From Escherichia coli (GTDB lineage Bacteria; Pseudomonadota; Gammaproteobacteria; Enterobacterales; Enterobacteriaceae): a stretch of 62,297 nt of DNA. The stretch's first letter is position 1. Every line of letters begins with the position of its first letter. Positions 3,001 to 9,000 of the stretch are shown here, piece by piece. A program made the position numbers. The stretch lies in NCBI RefSeq assembly GCF_024298765.1, contig NZ_CP101213.1; one strand, given 5' to 3'.

Positions 3001-6000
3001 ACGCCGCGTTCTGGTCATGCCAGAAAATCCTGTGGTGAATGAAAAGCCGCAGGAAGTACAAAAATCAGCAGTTAATGAAAACAAGAAAGTACAGAAGAAA
3101 GATGCTGTAGCAGAGAAAACACGTAAAAAGCAGCCTCAGCCCTGGTATTTGAAAAAACAAATCACTTTTCCCCCAAAATATCCGAAAGAATATTTTGAAA
3201 AGTGTTTCAATAAAGTTCGTGCTGTTTTTCCTGAACTATGGACAGACGAAAAAAAGAACTTGCCCCTGAAAAGCGGGATTCTCCAGGACGTTGAGAAATA
3301 CCTGGCGGATAACCCGGATGTGGATCTGACGATTGAAGAGTGGAATTGTGCGGTTCAGGTGATGACGTTCCGGTGGCAATATCTTCAGAATTGTACTGTA
3401 CCAGGCGCAACACGTTACGACCTTTACGGGAAACCTGCTGGTACAGTAAAAAAAGCACACGCAACTTATGCGCAACTGGTTCTCGATGCCCGTAAGAAAG
3501 CCAGCGAGAAGAAACAATTAAAACGTAAGGGATAAAGCCCCGAAGGGCTTTATCATTTCAGCCTGGCTGACTGTAGAATCCAGTGATTTTTTCCGTTTTC
3601 GTCCAGGCCGTGTTCGTAAGCTGCAAGAGCCGCTTTCATTATTGCTGTTTTTGTCTGGCCTGTTCGCAGTGCTTCCCGTTCCAGAATATCTTCGTAAACG
3701 TCCCCAAGCCGGACATTGGTCACTTTAGTTGCTCCCGATTTTTTGCGGGTAGCTTCATTGATGAATCGGGCTGTGTCTGCATTGGTTTGTTCTGTTTTTT
3801 GTCCTGGTATTACCGGAGTTTTCAAGTCAAGAGCCATTATATCACCTTTCGTGTGTTACATTAGCTTTACTGTGTAAAGCTAATGATGTAAAGCGATCGT
3901 ATTACATCCATTAGGGATTGATGCCTAACTCTTGCGCCAAAAGCTCTATTTGTGCTTTAGCTGTAGAAAGGCTGGATGCGCGACGTACATCATGAACGCC
4001 AGCGCCTTCATTACAGGCCGCTTCAAAAATATCTAAATCTGAAATACGTGTACGAAGTGGCTGTATCCACACCGGGTTCTCCCGGAGTAACTTGTCGAGA
4101 TCAATCGCTGCTTTTCTGTGGCGTGGTTTTGTCGTGTTAATTCTCGTGAAAAGTACCCAGGGTTGCAGGTCTGGATTGATCTGTTGAGCTGTGCGAACTT
4201 TTTCTGTTACATGAGTCAGCGTTTCTGCTTCGAAATCTGAAGACGGCTTAACGAGAGTAAGCAGAGTGTCAGCTACAGTTAAGGCGCTGCGAAATTCCTT
4301 GCTGTCATGACCTGGACAGTCAATGATCAGCACTTCACATATTTTTTTCAGGCGCTTAATGACTTCTGATACATCGCCATACTCTTCATAAACAGGAACC
4401 GGTAATAAGCCATTCTGCTTTCTTTTTTCGTTCCAGCTAAGAATATCATTGTTTTTATCGGTCTTCAGAATGATGACCGTTCGTGAATTATTTACCAGAT
4501 AAGAAGCCAGGTTTGTTGCTGTGGTGCTTTTTCCTACACCGCCTTTATCTGATGCGACAAGTAATGCTCTCCCCATAGAAACCTCGGATATACAGTGTAA
4601 AGGTTTATTTGTCTTTACATTGTATTCATTATAGTTACGTTGTAAAGATGTTTGTGTCTTTACAATGTAATTGCTTTTGTGCTTTACATTGTGTGTATGT
4701 TACAGGGTAACTTTTCAGGATGCGATTTTGCCTGGTGTGTTGTTGCGCCCGTAGCTCGCTGACGCTCACACGCGCAGTACAGCGCCCCGCCCTGCTGCAA
4801 TGCACCAGGACGGCGTAAACTCGCTGGCGCTCGCGCTAACTGCGGCATTCTGCGGCGCAAATCAGCATTATCATGGCCTGTTGGTCTGTCCTGGCTTTGC
4901 AGGGCGAAGGGATGGCCCTGTGCATCCTGGTATGTTCGTCAGCGGCTGCGCCGCGCTTCGGGGCGATGTGGCCCCGCTGCTCCCTGGTATTTTCTTTCGC
5001 CCCTTCTATCCGCTGGCGCGGATTAAAAAATGAGCAAACCATCAAATAACTTGCTGTTTTCAGGCAATAAATCTTGATAATACATCTAAATAGATGTATT
5101 ATTGTTTCATCGAAAGGGGATTGGCTCCTTTCCTTCTTAAGTCCAAACGGACAGGAGATTTAAAATGAAAACATTGACTTTTAATAACGGCACTGTTTCT
5201 GTTGGCGATGTGTTTGTATCTTCCTGGGGATATGAGCAAACGAACGTTAATTTCTACCAGGTTATTTCTGTTCATGGCAAAAAAACAGTAACTGTTCAGG
5301 AGATTCGCGCTTCAGTTCATCGGACTCATTCAATGAGCGGATATAAGACTCCATTACTTAATGATTTCTGTGGTGAGCCATTAAAACGGCGAGTGCGTGA
5401 TTATTACAGTTCGCCAGCAATTGAAATTGAGGAATTCGAAACAGCATATAAAGGATCACCGGAAGAAAAACACGAGTTCACATCATACTACTAAGAAAAT
5501 AGTTGCAGGGGGTATCCCCTGCAACCATGTTAAAAATGTTAATAGTAGTATTTACCCAGGGGGTTTTAGTATGAATGATGGGGTAAAACTCCGTCCTTCA
5601 GGGCGTGGAGAATGCCGGGCTAATGCAGCAATGTAATGTTGCGCCCGTAGCTCGCTGACGCTCACACACGCAGTACAGCGCCGCGCTTCGGGGCGATGTG
5701 GCCCCGCTGTTCCCTGGTATTTCCTTTCGCCCCTTCTATCCGCTGACGCGGATTAAGAAACGAGCAAATCATCAAGTAAATTGCTGTTTTCAGGAAATAA
5801 ATCTTGATAATACATCTAAATAGATGTATTATTGTTTCATCGAAAGGGGATTGGCTCCTTTCCTTCTTAAGTCCAAACGGACAGGAGATTTAAAATGAAT
5901 ATCCAGGAAGCATTAAACGTTTTTGGATTATCCGGCGAATTAACTGAAAAAGATATCAAAGCAGCATACAGAAAAGCCGCTTTAAAATATCATCCAGATC

Positions 6001-9000
6001 GTAACCCGTTAGGGGCTGAACTGATGAAAGCGGTAAATGCAGCTTTTGATGTCTTGATGGCAAATATTGATAAAATAAATCAGTTCCAGAGCGCTGATGA
6101 ACATGCACGATATAATTACGGTGATGACCTGGAAAAAGTATTAAACGTTCTTTCTGGTTTATCTGGTCTGGTATTTGAAGTGATAGGTAACTGGGTATGG
6201 ATTAGTGGAGAAACTATTACACATAAGGAAACTTTAAAAGAAATCGGGTGTAAATGGGCGGCAAAGAAAAAACAATGGTTTTATCGTCCAGACGAACATA
6301 AAAGTTACTGGAATCGTGAAGAACACACGATAGAAGAAATCCGCGCAAAATACGGTACAACCGGACAGCGCAGGGCGACAGGGTGGCAACGCGTGGAAAC
6401 CAGAGCGTAACCAGAACGGGGGCGAGAAGCCCCCGATATCATACCAGCCCGTCTTTTGGGGCATCGAACCCAAAAAGACGGGAACAGCAGCCACGTAGCA
6501 AAAAGGGAAACAGATGAACTCTTTTTTTGAACAGTATCACCCTGTCTTTGAAGTTGTCTGCCGTATCCTGGGGAACGGCTGGCGCGTGAACAAACTTGAT
6601 GATTGTCCGTCTCGTATAAAACTGACGTCACCGCAGTTTAAAAATTACTCTGTGCATATTCGGATGGAAAAAGACCGATTTTCTGTTGTGGGGAGTGTGG
6701 ATAGTCGTTCCTGGAGTAGTCCGTATCATGTTTGTACGTTATCCAGGAAGCGGAATCCCGTTGATATAGCAGCCAATATCGAACGAAAAATTTTGCTAAA
6801 TGCTTCGCAGGAGGTGTTACAGGCGATTGAGTATGAGAAACGCCAGGCGGCAAAAAAGGACGAAATTCTGATCCTGAAAGGTATGTTATCGCAACTTGTC
6901 CAGCTTGAAAGCTGGTATGGGGCATTGACAGGCTTTAAAGCTGAAAATGGATTGAACGGTAAAGTCACCGAGCAGGGCGAGCGTTATGATTTGCAGATTA
7001 GGGGTTTGAGTATAGATCAACTTGTTAAAATTACAGGATATTTGAAACAGTTATGAGAAAAAACAAAGGGCGATTGACTTATTATCTTGAAGTGATTGAT
7101 AAAAAATACCATTTTGTAAAAAAAATAAGCAGTTATTCAAAGGAGTTCACTGACGGAAAAACAAAAAGAACAAAGAGAACGTTAAGTGAGCTGGTTTTTA
7201 ATGAAAGTGAGGTCGAGGCAATAGACTTTACAAAAAATGGTTTAAGACCTGTTGATAAGAATATTCTCTTAACTATGGTGAAAGAATATAAGGAGAGTGA
7301 TGCATGACTATTGAAAATACACCGGAAAACATAAAGAAATTACGAAAAAAAATTGGCCTTACCCAGACAGAGTGCGGTGAGATTTTTGGCGTAGGCTTAA
7401 GTACATGGCAGAAAAAAGAAGCTAAAACCCACAACCAGCTTAATTTATCGAAAGGTGAATTTGAGTACCTGTTATTACTTGCAGGGGAGCACCCTGAATA
7501 CGTCCTGCATAAAAAAGCTGAATCCCGCTCACCGGAGGAACCGTGAGCGAGAAGAAAAACACCACGACGCAGAAATCTAAGATATACAGTGTAAAGGTTT
7601 ATTTGTCTTTACATTGTAATTGTTCTTTGTCTTTACACAGTGTGTGTTTGTAACAGGGCGACTTTACATAATTGCGATTTTGCCTGGTGTGTTGTTGCGC
7701 CCGTAGCTCGCTGACGCTCACACGCGCAGTACAGCGCCCCGCCCTGCTGCAATGCACCAGGACGGCGTGAACTCGCTGGCGCTCGCGCTAACTGCGGCAT
7801 TCTGCGGCGCAAATCAGCATGATCATAGCCTGTTGGTCTGTTCTGGCTTTGCAGGGCGAAGGGATGGCCCTGTGCATCCTGGTATGTTCGTCAGCGGCTG
7901 CGCCGCGCTTCGGGGCGATGTGGCCCCGCTGCTCCCTGGTATTTTTTTTCGCCCCTTCTATCCGCTGGCGCGGATTAAAAAATGAGCAAACCATCAAATA
8001 ACTTGCTGTTTTCAGGCAATAAATCTTGATAATACATCTAAATAGATGTATTATTATTTCATCGAAAGGGGATTGGCTCCTTTCCTTCTTAAGTCCAAAC
8101 GGACAGGAGATTTAAAATGAAATTCACTTCAACCACGAATCATGTTTTCACATTCGAACGAGTAACGCTTTGCACGATTGTTCTTATTCATAAGGATACG
8201 GGACAACAGTATGTTGTCATATTTACGGATAACAATAAAATTCGTGACTATAAGACCGGAATTGTTTCTCAGTTTGGTGAACTTAAGCAGAGTGATATTG
8301 ATTTAATTCTTTTCTATCGGGACGAATATGAAAAATATTTTGACTCGTTAAATAATGGCGAGGAGTATTTGAGTTTTAAAGAATATATCGGATGTATAAG
8401 GGGAAAATAAATTATGAAAGGTGTGTTCAGGTTGCTGGAACAACCTGAACACGTTATCGACAATCAAAACTGAATGAGGTTTTTAAATGTCAACACGACA
8501 GATCGTACAGCTTGCTGACTCCCTTGTCAAAGGCTGGGAAACCAGAATTCCGGCAATGACGTGCACGGAGTGGGATCAATTCCGGTGGTGGTTAAACTAC
8601 CTGCAAGGGTATGAAATGTTTTAAATAACCGGGATAAATTCATATATGGGGAGAGTGTCATGCTCTCCCTTTCTTATTGGGTAGCGAGTTGTATTACATA
8701 TTTAGCTTTACGTTGTAAAGATTTTATTGTCTTTACAGTGTGGTGTGTTTTCCGGCGGTTGCGCTGCGCTTAGGGGTATGTGGCTTCGCTGCTCCCTGGT
8801 ATTTTCTTTCACCCTCCTATTTGTCCGATGACTTTTGACAACAACGCTATTTGTAACTATAATTAGTTGCATGTTGGCAAGGGATGGGATTATAGCGTAT
8901 GGGGAAAGCAGATAAGCTACTGGCAAAATTTTTAAACAGTAAAAAAACGTTTGAATGGGATGAACTCGTTGTTTTGTTTTCTTCTCTAGGATATGTCAAA

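What the first reader, a model, noticed from the sequence alone, without database searches (positions are those of the whole stretch)
5895..6410. Stand-alone J-domain protein in the leading region
The first ~65 residues are a canonical J domain with the HPD motif (KYHPDRNP). The remaining ~100 residues are unrelated to DnaJ substrate-binding domains. A plasmid J-domain protein expressed on entry could recruit host DnaK/Hsp70, for example to remodel relaxase or Rep complexes or to interfere with a host factor. I cannot recall a characterised equivalent in this position.
Basis: partly seen in the sequence, partly recalled or inferred. Interest (0 to 1): 0.6.

Follow-up and report, generated by a model that had tools for sequence, protein, structure and literature searches.

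The report
Plasmid J-domain protein, leading region
This IncI2 resistance plasmid encodes a small protein with an intact Hsp70-recruiting J domain joined to an uncharacterised basic domain, sitting where genes enter a new host first; the family is common on clinically important plasmids but nobody has tested what it does.

Summary
ORF 5895-6410 (+), 171 aa, has a good ribosome-binding site. It has an N-terminal J domain (Pfam PF00226, E 4e-11) with HPD at residues 33-35, and no DnaJ glycine/phenylalanine, zinc-finger or C-terminal domains. The window is an IncI2 (MOBP) plasmid. The gene lies on the non-relaxase side of the inferred oriT and points towards it, as F leading genes do. IncX3, IncX4 and an Acinetobacter MOBF plasmid show the same layout.

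Residues 90-160 form a confidently modelled basic alpha/beta domain with no solved relative and a distant DUF5710-like unit. In other conjugative elements this domain stands alone or is fused to a RepB-type primase or an M78 peptidase.

The protein occurs in 2,595 plasmid records (83% conjugative) and 3 of 50,697 phage records. Its promoter carries a dyad operator that keeps its symmetry through compensatory changes in IncX4.

Best reading: a class C J-domain co-chaperone, derepressed on entry, that directs recipient DnaK to a conserved target, possibly DNA-linked. DnaK binding, timing and target are all untested. The literature calls it "dnaJ, function unknown". It is a new variant of a known kind, of moderate interest.

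The parts
5895..6410 (+). CDS of the 171-aa J-domain protein, stop codon included. RefSeq WP_001025393.1, 'J domain-containing protein'.
5895..6086 (+). J domain, residues 1-64: four helices, with HPD at residues 33-35 (codons 5991-5999). Helix II is basic (K22, R26, K27, K31). Y25 and M44 align with DnaJ Y25 and F47.
   Evidence: Pfam E 4.3e-11; PDB J-domain matches; AF2 helices 3-10, 18-32, 40-56, 58-63; HPD at least 90% conserved
6087..6161 (+). Acidic linker and first helix, residues 65-89. Family median pI is 4.4.
6162..6374 (+). C-terminal basic alpha/beta domain, residues 90-160. Residues W100, G105 and W128 are invariant; E95, G98, W102, T107, K115, K125, I149 and G154 are nearly invariant. 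Residues 102-130 (6198-6284) form a DUF5710-like beta-alpha-beta-beta unit.
5632..5899 (+). Partial copy of the repeated leader element. The last 222 nt (promoter, operator, RBS, ATGA) are 96-99% identical to the leaders of the ORFs that start at 5165 and 8117.
5804..5832 (+). Sigma-70-like promoter TTGATA-17-TATTAT. A dyad, AATACATCTA-aa-TAGATGTATT (5809-5830), lies between the hexamers and overlaps them. IncX4 leaders keep the dyad through compensatory changes.
5883..5887 (+). Shine-Dalgarno sequence AGGAG, 7 nt before the ATG.
6417..6435 (.). GC-rich hairpin (7 G-C pairs) immediately after the stop codon, in the 103-nt gap before orf180. It has no U-tract on the + strand.
6514..7056 (+). 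orf180, the downstream conserved partner in IncI2, IncX3 and IncX4 plasmids only. It has no Pfam, NCBIfam or PHROG match.
7053..7307 (+). orf84. Its start overlaps the orf180 stop (ATGA).
7304..7546 (+). orf80, an XRE/MqsA-type helix-turn-helix protein at the end of the operon. It is the candidate repressor of the leader operators (inferred).
13729..13779 (-). Context: the inferred oriT core. An inverted repeat (13742-13749 and 13772-13779) is followed on the minus strand by GTGCCTG|T near 13730, which resembles the MOBP nick motif. It lies just upstream of the relaxosome gene (13858-14199) and the relaxase (14196-18509).
   Evidence: The nick site is inferred from a remembered consensus and is not verified.

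Best explanation
The gene encodes a class C (type III) J-domain co-chaperone that belongs to the plasmid's establishment or leading-region gene set.

Shown:
- The J domain is intact.
- A separate, conserved, basic C-terminal domain is a mobile module of conjugative elements.
- The gene has leading-region position and orientation in four unrelated plasmid backbones.
- The gene has its own sigma-70-type promoter with a dyad operator.

Inferred:
- In an established plasmid the promoter is repressed, probably by the helix-turn-helix protein at the end of the operon.
- When the plasmid enters a repressor-free recipient, the gene is expressed in a burst.
- The J domain docks on recipient DnaK and triggers its ATPase.
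- The C-terminal DUF5710-like domain supplies the address. The most likely address is a conserved, acidic or nucleic-acid target linked to the incoming DNA, such as single-stranded DNA, SSB or a primosome/relaxosome nucleoprotein complex.
- DnaK would thus be concentrated where remodelling or refolding is needed during establishment.
For: J-domain identity and HPD conservation.

No class A or B domains.

Full-length AF2 model: pLDDT 89, pTM 0.76.

The C-terminal domain is a separate evolutionary unit. It is found in 1,704 representatives. Among the best 149, 103 carry an N-terminal J domain (always N-terminal), 34 are stand-alone, and others are fused to RepB_primase (7 repeats), Peptidase_M78 and, by my reading of the sequence, an SNase-like domain. 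The primase and peptidase fusions lie 1.5-2 kb upstream of TrwC relaxase genes.

The C-terminal domain is uniformly basic: pI 9.1-9.9, net charge +1 to +15.

DUF5710 link. There are also weak structural hits to viral topoisomerase and DUF5710 proteins.

Distribution: 2,595 plasmid records, of which 2,146 are conjugative, against 3 of 50,697 phage records.

Geometry: the gene is on the + strand upstream of oriT, the relaxosome gene and the relaxase in IncI2, IncX4, IncX3 and an Acinetobacter MOBF plasmid. This matches the F leading genes. Samuel et al. 2024 reported that the leading-region anti-defence, methyltransferase, SSB and toxin-antitoxin gene families they examined all share one orientation relative to the transferred strand (PMC11541004).

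Distant homologues sit in co-directional arrays of small genes together with UmuDC, DUF3560, DndB-like and HigB genes.

Promoter and compensated dyad.
Against: - There is no experimental datum for DnaK binding, ATPase stimulation, timing of expression or any phenotype.
- The C-terminal domain's ligand is unknown. No solved fold matches it, and basic charge is weak evidence for nucleic-acid binding.
- In IncI2 about 4 kb of minus-strand transfer genes lie between oriT and this gene block, so the gene is 7-8 kb from the nick rather than at the very front.
- The upstream GC-rich repeat has no sequence similarity to F Frpo and shows no covariation. Transcription from single-stranded DNA is therefore unsupported.
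- IncI2 comparative work treats dnaJ as an accessory gene of one clade (PMC8868234), so it is not essential for transfer.
- 11 of 103 J-positive representatives lack an exact HPD.
Confidence: 0.55

Rival explanations
1. Rki-like DnaK interference. The protein does not deliver a client. It occupies or mis-cycles DnaK, so sigma-32 escapes DnaK-mediated degradation. The recipient then mounts a heat-shock response that helps the plasmid, through more chaperones and proteases and a lower acquisition cost.
For: Rki, the only characterised phage J-domain protein, works this way, is expressed early and is a class C protein with no other known domain (PMC3486835; PMC13254874). The J domain here is intact. 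The leading-region context fits host reprogramming, as shown for HerB/YfjB (PMC13370423).
Against: No homology to Rki beyond the J domain: tblastn against 50,697 phage records gave only 3 hits, none in T4-like phages. The C-terminal domain is strongly conserved and is reused with a primase, a peptidase and, by sequence reading, a nuclease. That argues for a targeting role not needed for simple DnaK titration.
Confidence: 0.15
2. Anti-defence by chaperone hijack. The C-terminal domain binds a recipient defence or stress sensor, or the protein competes with host DnaJ. DnaK then disassembles the sensor, or chaperone-guarding immunity is not triggered.
For: Leading regions are enriched in anti-defence genes (PMC11541004). 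That paper's supplementary table lists a small 'DnaJ domain-containing' family among the gene families it tabulates. The host DnaJ-DnaK cycle is required for the bNACHT25 defence system to sense infection (PMC12169576). From my own knowledge, polyomavirus T antigens use a J domain with Hsc70 to dismantle host complexes.
Against: No match to any PADLOC model, although PADLOC covers defence rather than anti-defence proteins. No known anti-defence domain was found. Conservation from Enterobacterales to Enterococcus and Clostridium argues for a universal target rather than a patchily distributed defence protein.
Confidence: 0.12
3. Vegetative replication or maintenance helper. The protein feeds DnaK to the plasmid's own initiator or partition complex, and its position near oriT is incidental.
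For: From my own knowledge, iteron initiators (P1 RepA, F RepE, R6K pi) need DnaK, DnaJ and GrpE; reference 39 listed concerns P1. In IncX3 and IncX4 the gene lies 1.3-1.4 kb from pir. The PGAP note says 'protein folding'.
Against: The family accompanies unrelated replicons (IncI2 RepA, IncX pi, Acinetobacter rep_cluster_734, Gram-positive plasmids) and always sits in the unidirectional small-gene array. The repressor-type operator shared with two other leader copies indicates a co-regulated entry regulon. Host DnaJ already serves the initiators.
Confidence: 0.1
4. The J domain is a structural relic and the protein acts without Hsp70. For example, it could be a small DNA- or SSB-binding protein in which the helical domain is only a scaffold.
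For: 34 of 149 representatives are stand-alone C-terminal domains, so that domain can work alone. 11 of 103 J-positive representatives lack an exact HPD, for example HLD in P0123.
Against: HPD and the helix II and III signature residues are kept at 90% or more across homologues down to 27% identity. This is not expected for a relic.
Confidence: 0.05

Closest known systems
Rki (ORF057w) of T4-like phage RB43
   Same: It is a class C J-domain protein encoded by a mobile element, with an N-terminal J domain and a non-DnaJ remainder. It is expressed early and acts on host DnaK rather than as a general co-chaperone (PMC3486835).
   Different: There is no detectable homology outside the J domain. 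Rki is a phage protein, whereas this family is almost exclusively on plasmids. This protein has a defined, widely reused C-terminal domain. Nothing has been tested experimentally here.
E. coli class C and DNA-linked J-domain proteins (CbpA, DjlA)
   Same: Each has a J domain with HPD. CbpA couples a J domain to DNA binding. NCBIfam gives weak J-only hits to both.
   Different: CbpA has DnaJ-type C-terminal domains and DjlA has a transmembrane segment. Neither feature is present here, and scores are far below the cut-offs (19.7 against 403, and 22.5 against 162 bits).
Polyomavirus large and small T antigens
   Same: The logic is the same: an N-terminal viral J domain plus a targeting region recruits host Hsp70 to remodel specific host or replication complexes. 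The T-antigen J domains are hit by the family profile (E about 3e-6).
   Different: They are eukaryotic viral proteins, have unrelated C-terminal domains and use Hsc70 rather than DnaK.
DUF5710 (PF18974) proteins of plasmids, phages and giant viruses
   Same: Residues 102-130 align with the DUF5710-type unit, strand-helix-G-x-W-x3-5-K-x-W-Y/F (hhalign probability 97%). The window's own T4SS-region ORF (~54162-54974) carries a canonical copy.
   Different: The Pfam model does not hit this protein at all and hits only 17 of 89 homologues at E 0.1 or better. Here the unit is embedded in a larger alpha-beta-beta-alpha-beta-beta-alpha-beta domain. DUF5710 itself has no known function.
Repeat-controlled leading-region regulons (CUP elements of IncN pKM101; Frpo/ssi of F and ColIb-P9)
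   Same: Several leading-region genes are each preceded by a copy of a long conserved repeat that carries the promoter. The gene orientation is the same as in F.
   Different: There is no sequence similarity to the F leading region. A single-stranded promoter function is not shown. The comparison with CUP elements rests on my memory of Delver and Belogurov 1997 and was not tested.

Membership tests
J-domain proteins (Pfam PF00226) | J-domain sequence signature and four-helix fold | tested here: met
   Pfam E 4.3e-11 over residues 9-56. PDB J domains match at E 5e-10 to 1e-12. The AF2 model has helices at 3-10, 18-32, 40-56 and 58-63, with pLDDT 88-96.
J-domain proteins (Pfam PF00226) | HPD tripeptide in the loop between helices II and III | tested here: met
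   H33-P34-D35 (codons 5991-5999). Each is at least 90% conserved in 89 homologues. 92 of 103 representatives keep an exact HPD.
J-domain proteins (Pfam PF00226) | Binds Hsp70/DnaK and stimulates its ATPase | not testable with these tools
   This needs a pull-down and an ATPase assay with wild-type and H33Q protein.
Class A/B DnaJ (DnaJ, CbpA type) | G/F-rich region, CXXCXGXG zinc fingers and DnaJ C-terminal substrate-binding domains | tested here: not met
   No Pfam hit other than PF00226. All NCBIfam DnaJ and CbpA hits cover only residues ~2-65, at 20-40 bits against cut-offs of 300-600. The protein is therefore class C.
Rki family (phage RB43) | Sequence homology beyond the J domain | tested here: not met
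   tblastn against 50,697 phage records gave 3 hits (an uncultured Caudoviricetes, an Enterococcus phage and a Fusobacterium phage) and none in T4-like phages. The Rki sequence itself was not retrieved.
Rki family (phage RB43) | DnaK-dependent toxicity and sigma-32 stabilisation | not testable with these tools
   This needs experiments.
DUF5710 (PF18974) | Match to the Pfam model at its threshold | tested here: inconclusive
   The Pfam model does not hit this protein even at E 10 or better. 17 of 89 homologues match at E 0.1 or better, with a best value of 2e-3. hhalign gives probability 97% to a small alignment of DUF5710-like units, but 7 of its 8 sequences came from a protein found with this query, so the test is partly circular.
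Leading-region (establishment) genes of conjugative plasmids | Located on the side of oriT opposite the relaxase | tested here: met
   The gene is at 5.9-6.4 kb. The inferred oriT is at ~13.73-13.78 kb, and the relaxosome gene and relaxase lie at 13.86-18.5 kb. IncX4, IncX3 and Acinetobacter MOBF plasmids have the same layout. The position of oriT is inferred, not determined experimentally.
Leading-region (establishment) genes of conjugative plasmids | Transcribed towards oriT, so that the transferred strand is the template | tested here: met
   The gene is on the + strand and points towards oriT, as F ssb and psiB do. The putative nick is on the minus strand.
Leading-region (establishment) genes of conjugative plasmids | Preceded by a single-stranded-DNA promoter (Frpo/ssi) | tested here: inconclusive
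   The minus strand of the GC-rich repeat folds better than shuffled sequence, with z -2.9 and -4.3. It has no similarity to the F leading region and none of its 89 predicted pairs covaries. An ordinary sigma-70-like promoter is present.
Leading-region (establishment) genes of conjugative plasmids | Early (zygotic) expression in the recipient | not testable with these tools
   This is only suggested by the dyad operator inside the promoter.
Known anti-phage defence systems (PADLOC) | Match to any PADLOC model | tested here: not met
   No family matched this protein or its five neighbours.

The most novel reading that the evidence does not exclude
The C-terminal DUF5710-like domain is a previously unrecognised module that binds the incoming transferred-strand nucleoprotein (single-stranded DNA, the SSB tail or the relaxase-primosome complex). 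Conjugative elements from Proteobacteria to Firmicutes attach different effectors to it: a J domain, a primase, a peptidase or a nuclease. The J-domain version would define a dedicated, plasmid-encoded step that recruits recipient Hsp70 to the entering DNA complex. There DnaK could refold the translocated relaxase or clear host proteins, and this would set establishment efficiency for IncX3-NDM, IncX4/IncI2-mcr-1 and Acinetobacter OXA-23 plasmids.
Probability: 0.15. Interest if true: 0.8.

Novelty: new variant of a known kind. Interest (0 to 1): 0.5.

Why it matters
Mobile-element J-domain proteins that hijack Hsp70 are known from one phage (Rki) and from polyomaviruses. Recent reviews of J-domain proteins do not mention plasmid-encoded ones at all.

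This family is present in about 3.6% of PLSDB plasmids. These include the main global carriers of blaNDM (IncX3) and mcr-1 (IncX4, IncI2), and OXA-23-bearing Acinetobacter plasmids. The gene sits in the region now recognised as the establishment and anti-defence hotspot.

If the protein does recruit recipient DnaK, it would add chaperone hijacking to the establishment repertoire alongside anti-restriction, SOS inhibition and host reprogramming. It would also give the DUF5710-like domain a function and offer a conserved target for blocking plasmid spread. The hypothesis is cheap to test with an H33Q mutant, dnaK recipients and mating time-courses.

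Tried and rejected
- **Second J-domain gene.** One paper mentions 'two dnaJ genes' in an IncI2 plasmid. A profile scan of all six frames found only one in this window.
- **F-type Frpo in the upstream repeat.** blastn against the F leading region found nothing. RNAalifold found a long stem but no covariation, because the copies are too similar. Rfam found only sok.
- **orf180 as an obligate partner or client.** It co-occurs only in Enterobacterales IncI2 and IncX plasmids. It is absent next to the Vibrio, Acinetobacter and other homologues and has no domain hits. I rejected it as a general client.
- **Defence-system membership.** PADLOC gave no match.
- **Phage origin.** phrog_15863 matches well, but the family is nearly absent from 50,697 phage genomes.
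- **Literature.** Ten full-text searches found no functional study.

Full report
**1. Observation**

The ORF is exactly as described: 5895..6410 on the + strand, 171 aa, with an ATG start preceded by AGGAG at 5883-5887. Only eight in-frame codons lie upstream before a stop.

Pfam assigns residues 9-56 to the DnaJ domain (E 4.3e-11) and reports nothing else of significance. NCBIfam DnaJ, CbpA and DjlA models match only the first ~65 residues, at 20-40 bits against cut-offs of 150-600. phmmer against PDB sequences returns only J domains, with best E 4.9e-10. A profile of 89 homologues reaches E ~1e-12 and again covers only profile positions 1-79.

KYHPDRNP is residues 31-38, and the HPD codons are 5991-5999. 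From the alignments and my knowledge of E. coli DnaJ, the residues equivalent to Y25, K26 (R26 here), H33, P34, D35 and F47 (M44 here, invariant in the close family) are retained. The helix II-III loop is three residues shorter. H33, P34 and D35 are each at least 90% conserved across 89 homologues down to 27% identity. Of 103 J-positive cluster representatives, 92 keep an exact HPD. This is far beyond chance, and the J domain appears to be under selection.

**2. What the window is, and whether the gene is in the leading region**

The region is 99.7% identical to the mcr-1 plasmid pAH59-57, typed IncI2, MOBP, MPF_T.

Using that annotation and the window ORFs, the gene order is as follows:
- repA, then hok/sok (sok confirmed by Rfam), a ProQ/FinO protein, and a ParA-like gene on the minus strand.
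- A block of + strand genes at 5165-9491: orf109, the J protein, orf180, orf84, the HTH orf80, orf97 and HicAB.
- Minus-strand transfer genes up to 13490.
- An intergenic region.
- The relaxosome gene at 13858-14199 (+), the relaxase at 14196-18509 (+), and an mcr-1-sized ORF.

The intergenic region holds an inverted repeat (13742-13749 and 13772-13779). On the minus strand this is followed by GTGCCTG|T near 13730. That resembles the MOBP nick motif YATCCTG|Y as I remember it. This is an inference, not a test. If it is right, the minus strand is the transferred strand, DNA at lower coordinates enters first, and + strand genes are transcribed from the incoming strand.

The F plasmid shows the same arrangement: antirestriction, ssb and psiB genes on the + strand, then oriT, then traM on the + strand. 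Samuel et al. 2024 state that the relaxase is typically in the lagging region next to oriT. They also report that the leading-region anti-defence, methyltransferase, SSB and toxin-antitoxin gene families they examined all share one orientation relative to the transferred strand (PMC11541004).

The arrangement is even cleaner in two other plasmid types. In IncX4 and IncX3 the block J-orf180-orf84-orf80...HicAB runs directly into taxA/ddp1 and the relaxase, all on one strand. In an Acinetobacter MOBF/MPF_F plasmid the homologue sits in a co-directional array upstream of the coupling protein and MobF, separated only by inserted transposons.

I therefore accept 'leading region', with one caveat. 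In IncI2 the gene is 7-8 kb from the inferred nick, with ~4 kb of oppositely oriented transfer genes in between.

**3. Regulation**

Three genes (starts at 5165, 5895 and 8117) share a 222-nt leader that is 96-99% identical up to and including ATGA. Each copy contains a sigma-70-like promoter, TTGATA-17-TATTAT; the J-gene copy is at 5804-5832. The spacer holds a dyad, AATACATCTA-aa-TAGATGTATT.

In the IncX4 leaders the promoter hexamers and the RBS are conserved, but the dyad reads ATACGAC...GTCGTAT. Symmetry is therefore kept through changes on both arms. This is what an operator that co-evolves with its own repressor would show. The only DNA-binding candidate in the operon is the XRE/MqsA-type orf80, which is conserved in IncX3 and IncX4.

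Upstream of the leader lies a GC-rich ~300-nt repeat core (4721-5020 and 7673-7972, with partial copies at 5632 and 8773). It is shared only with IncI2 and ~33-kb IncX4-size plasmids. Its minus strand folds better than shuffled sequence, with z -2.9 and -4.3. However, it has no similarity to the F leading region and no covarying pairs. A single-stranded-DNA promoter is therefore possible but unsupported. Repressor control, and hence a burst of expression in a repressor-free recipient, is the better-supported inference.

**4. The C-terminal domain**

AlphaFold2 with 89 homologues gives pLDDT 89 and pTM 0.76 for the whole protein. It gives pLDDT 86.5 for residues 73-171 modelled alone. After the J domain and an acidic linker comes a domain with the order alpha-beta-beta-alpha-beta-beta-alpha-beta.

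Searches for a structural relative gave the following:
- Foldseek against AFDB50 returns only proteins of the same family.
- BFVD gives one phage 'molecular chaperone' plus weak hits to giant-virus topoisomerases and DUF5710 proteins.

An exhaustive HMMER search with residues 62-171 finds 1,704 cluster representatives at E 1e-3 or better. Among the best 149:
- 103 carry an N-terminal J domain, and it is always N-terminal.
- 34 are stand-alone proteins of 135 aa or fewer.
- The rest are fused to other modules. These are a RepB-type primase followed by seven tandem short units (P0206), a Peptidase_M78/IrrE-like domain (P0199), a region I read as SNase-like (P0198, not tested) and an unknown N-terminal domain (P0141, P0164, P0194).

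The primase and peptidase fusions lie 1.5-2 kb upstream of, and co-directional with, TrwC-type relaxase genes.

The short units of P0206 hit Pfam DUF5710 weakly, as do 17 of 89 J-fusion homologues. hhalign aligns residues 102-130 of this protein with an alignment of those units plus the window's own annotated DUF5710 ORF, at probability 97%. This test is partly circular.

The domain is uniformly basic (median pI 9.5, 10th-90th percentile 9.1-9.9). The J domain is neutral and the linker is acidic. Invariant or near-invariant residues are E95, G98, W100, W102, G105, T107, K115, K125, W128, I149 and G154.

I read this as a targeting module of conjugative elements. Its ligand is probably conserved across phyla, and is acidic or a nucleic acid. 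The ligand is not identified.

**5. Distribution**

tblastn finds the protein in 2,595 of 72,556 plasmid records, of which 2,146 are typed conjugative. Hosts include:
- Escherichia (1,027 records) and Klebsiella (530)
- Acinetobacter (265) and Enterococcus (164)
- Enterobacter (145), Salmonella, Citrobacter, Piscirickettsia, Vibrio, Clostridium and Bacillus

Only 3 of 50,697 phage records carry it. The IncX4 copy is 99.4% identical and the IncX3 copy 83% identical.

Distant homologues lie in long one-directional arrays of small genes together with UmuDC, DUF3560, DndB-like and HigB genes. orf180 accompanies the gene only in Enterobacterales IncI2 and IncX plasmids (2,060 records). It is absent from the distant loci, so it is not a general partner.

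**6. Mechanism**

Shown:
- An intact J domain.
- A separate, conserved, basic domain that conjugative elements reuse.
- Leading-region geometry in four backbones.
- A promoter with an operator-like dyad.

Inferred:
- Derepression on entry.
- HPD-dependent activation of recipient DnaK.
- Localisation of that activity by the C-terminal domain to a conserved target linked to the entering DNA.

The family spans unrelated replicons, both MOBP and MOBF relaxases, and both Gram-negative and Gram-positive hosts.

The rivals are:
- Rki-like interference with DnaK control of sigma-32 (PMC3486835).
- Anti-defence through chaperone hijack. Its plausibility rises because the bNACHT25 defence system depends on the host DnaJ-DnaK cycle (PMC12169576).
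- A vegetative replication helper.
- A relic J domain.

None can be excluded without experiments.

**7. Comparison and novelty**

The protein meets the sequence and fold criteria of a J-domain protein and fails those of class A and B, so it is class C. It is not a member of the Rki family, and it is at best a distant relative of DUF5710.

The literature knows the gene only as an annotation:
- IncI2 papers list 'dnaJ' as an accessory gene (PMC8868234 and PMC12750680).
- The supplementary table of the leading-region paper contains a five-member DnaJ family, and the text does not comment on it.
- A 2026 review of J-domain proteins mentions only phage and polyomavirus examples.
- No paper in the library combines DnaJ, leading region and conjugation.

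**8. Verdict**

The feature is real and correctly described. It is a new variant of a known kind: a mobile-element class C J-domain protein with a new targeting domain, in a conjugation-establishment context. Its presence is not surprising to anyone who has annotated IncX or IncI2 plasmids. Its function is open, easy to test, and relevant to the most important carbapenem- and colistin-resistance plasmids. Interest: 0.5.

Noticed in passing
window 4577-4624, 4622-4669, 7571-7618, 8695-8742, 10053-10100, 10179-10226, 10598-10645: There are seven copies of a 48-nt element that contains the dyad TACAnTGTAAAG-N10-12-CTTTACAnTGTA. Copies sit at the upstream edge of each long repeat and in the HicB-to-transfer-gene spacer. 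The element looks like a binding site for a plasmid regulator, and the terminator scan also flags it. Its function is unknown.
   Followed up: partly
window 5074-5102, 5804-5832, 8026-8054; L003 ~8900-8940 and ~10980-11020: Three genes (orf109, the J protein, orf97) share a 222-nt leader with the same promoter, dyad operator, RBS and ATGA start. IncX4 leaders keep the dyad through compensatory changes on both arms. This suggests a repressor-controlled entry regulon, reminiscent of the IncN CUP elements (comparison from memory).
   Followed up: partly
window 4721-5020 and 7673-7972 (ORFs 4800-5033, 7752-7985 and their antisense ORFs): The GC-rich repeat core carries 58-77-aa ORFs on both strands, and RefSeq records annotate some of them as hypothetical proteins. 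These are probably artefacts of composition rather than genes. The minus strand forms a long imperfect stem.
   Followed up: partly
window ~54162-54974 (+): An ORF in the T4SS region starts with a canonical DUF5710 motif (YLNVPFEEKDLAKQKGAQWDQEQRKWFVP). The plasmid therefore carries two proteins with this type of unit. The rest of this protein is cysteine-rich and uncharacterised.
   Followed up: partly
window 5165-5494 (+); L005 3623-4210; L008 12912-13493: orf109, the first gene with the shared leader, has homologues in the same small-gene arrays of Acinetobacter and other distant plasmids that also carry the J protein (E 5e-14 to 1e-31). It matches phrog_37844, of unknown function. It looks like another widespread establishment-array gene.
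   Followed up: no
window 6417-6435: A perfect 7-bp G-C hairpin lies 7 nt after the J-gene stop codon and has no U-tract on the + strand. It could be an RNA-stabilising or attenuating element between the J gene and orf180.
   Followed up: no
window 13560-13700: A run of GTGGGT/TGTGGGTT iteron-like repeats lies next to the inferred oriT inverted repeat. These may be relaxosome accessory-protein binding sites.
   Followed up: no
window 11024-11161 and 11466-11603: A 138-nt direct repeat (88% identity) lies inside the minus-strand gene block between HicAB and traL.
   Followed up: no
window 2459-2630 (+) and 18730-20355 (+): A sok antitoxin RNA (Rfam, 98 bits) lies next to hok. A 541-aa ORF lies immediately downstream of the relaxase and corresponds by position to mcr-1.1 of pAH59-57, with a constant offset of 564 nt.
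   Followed up: partly
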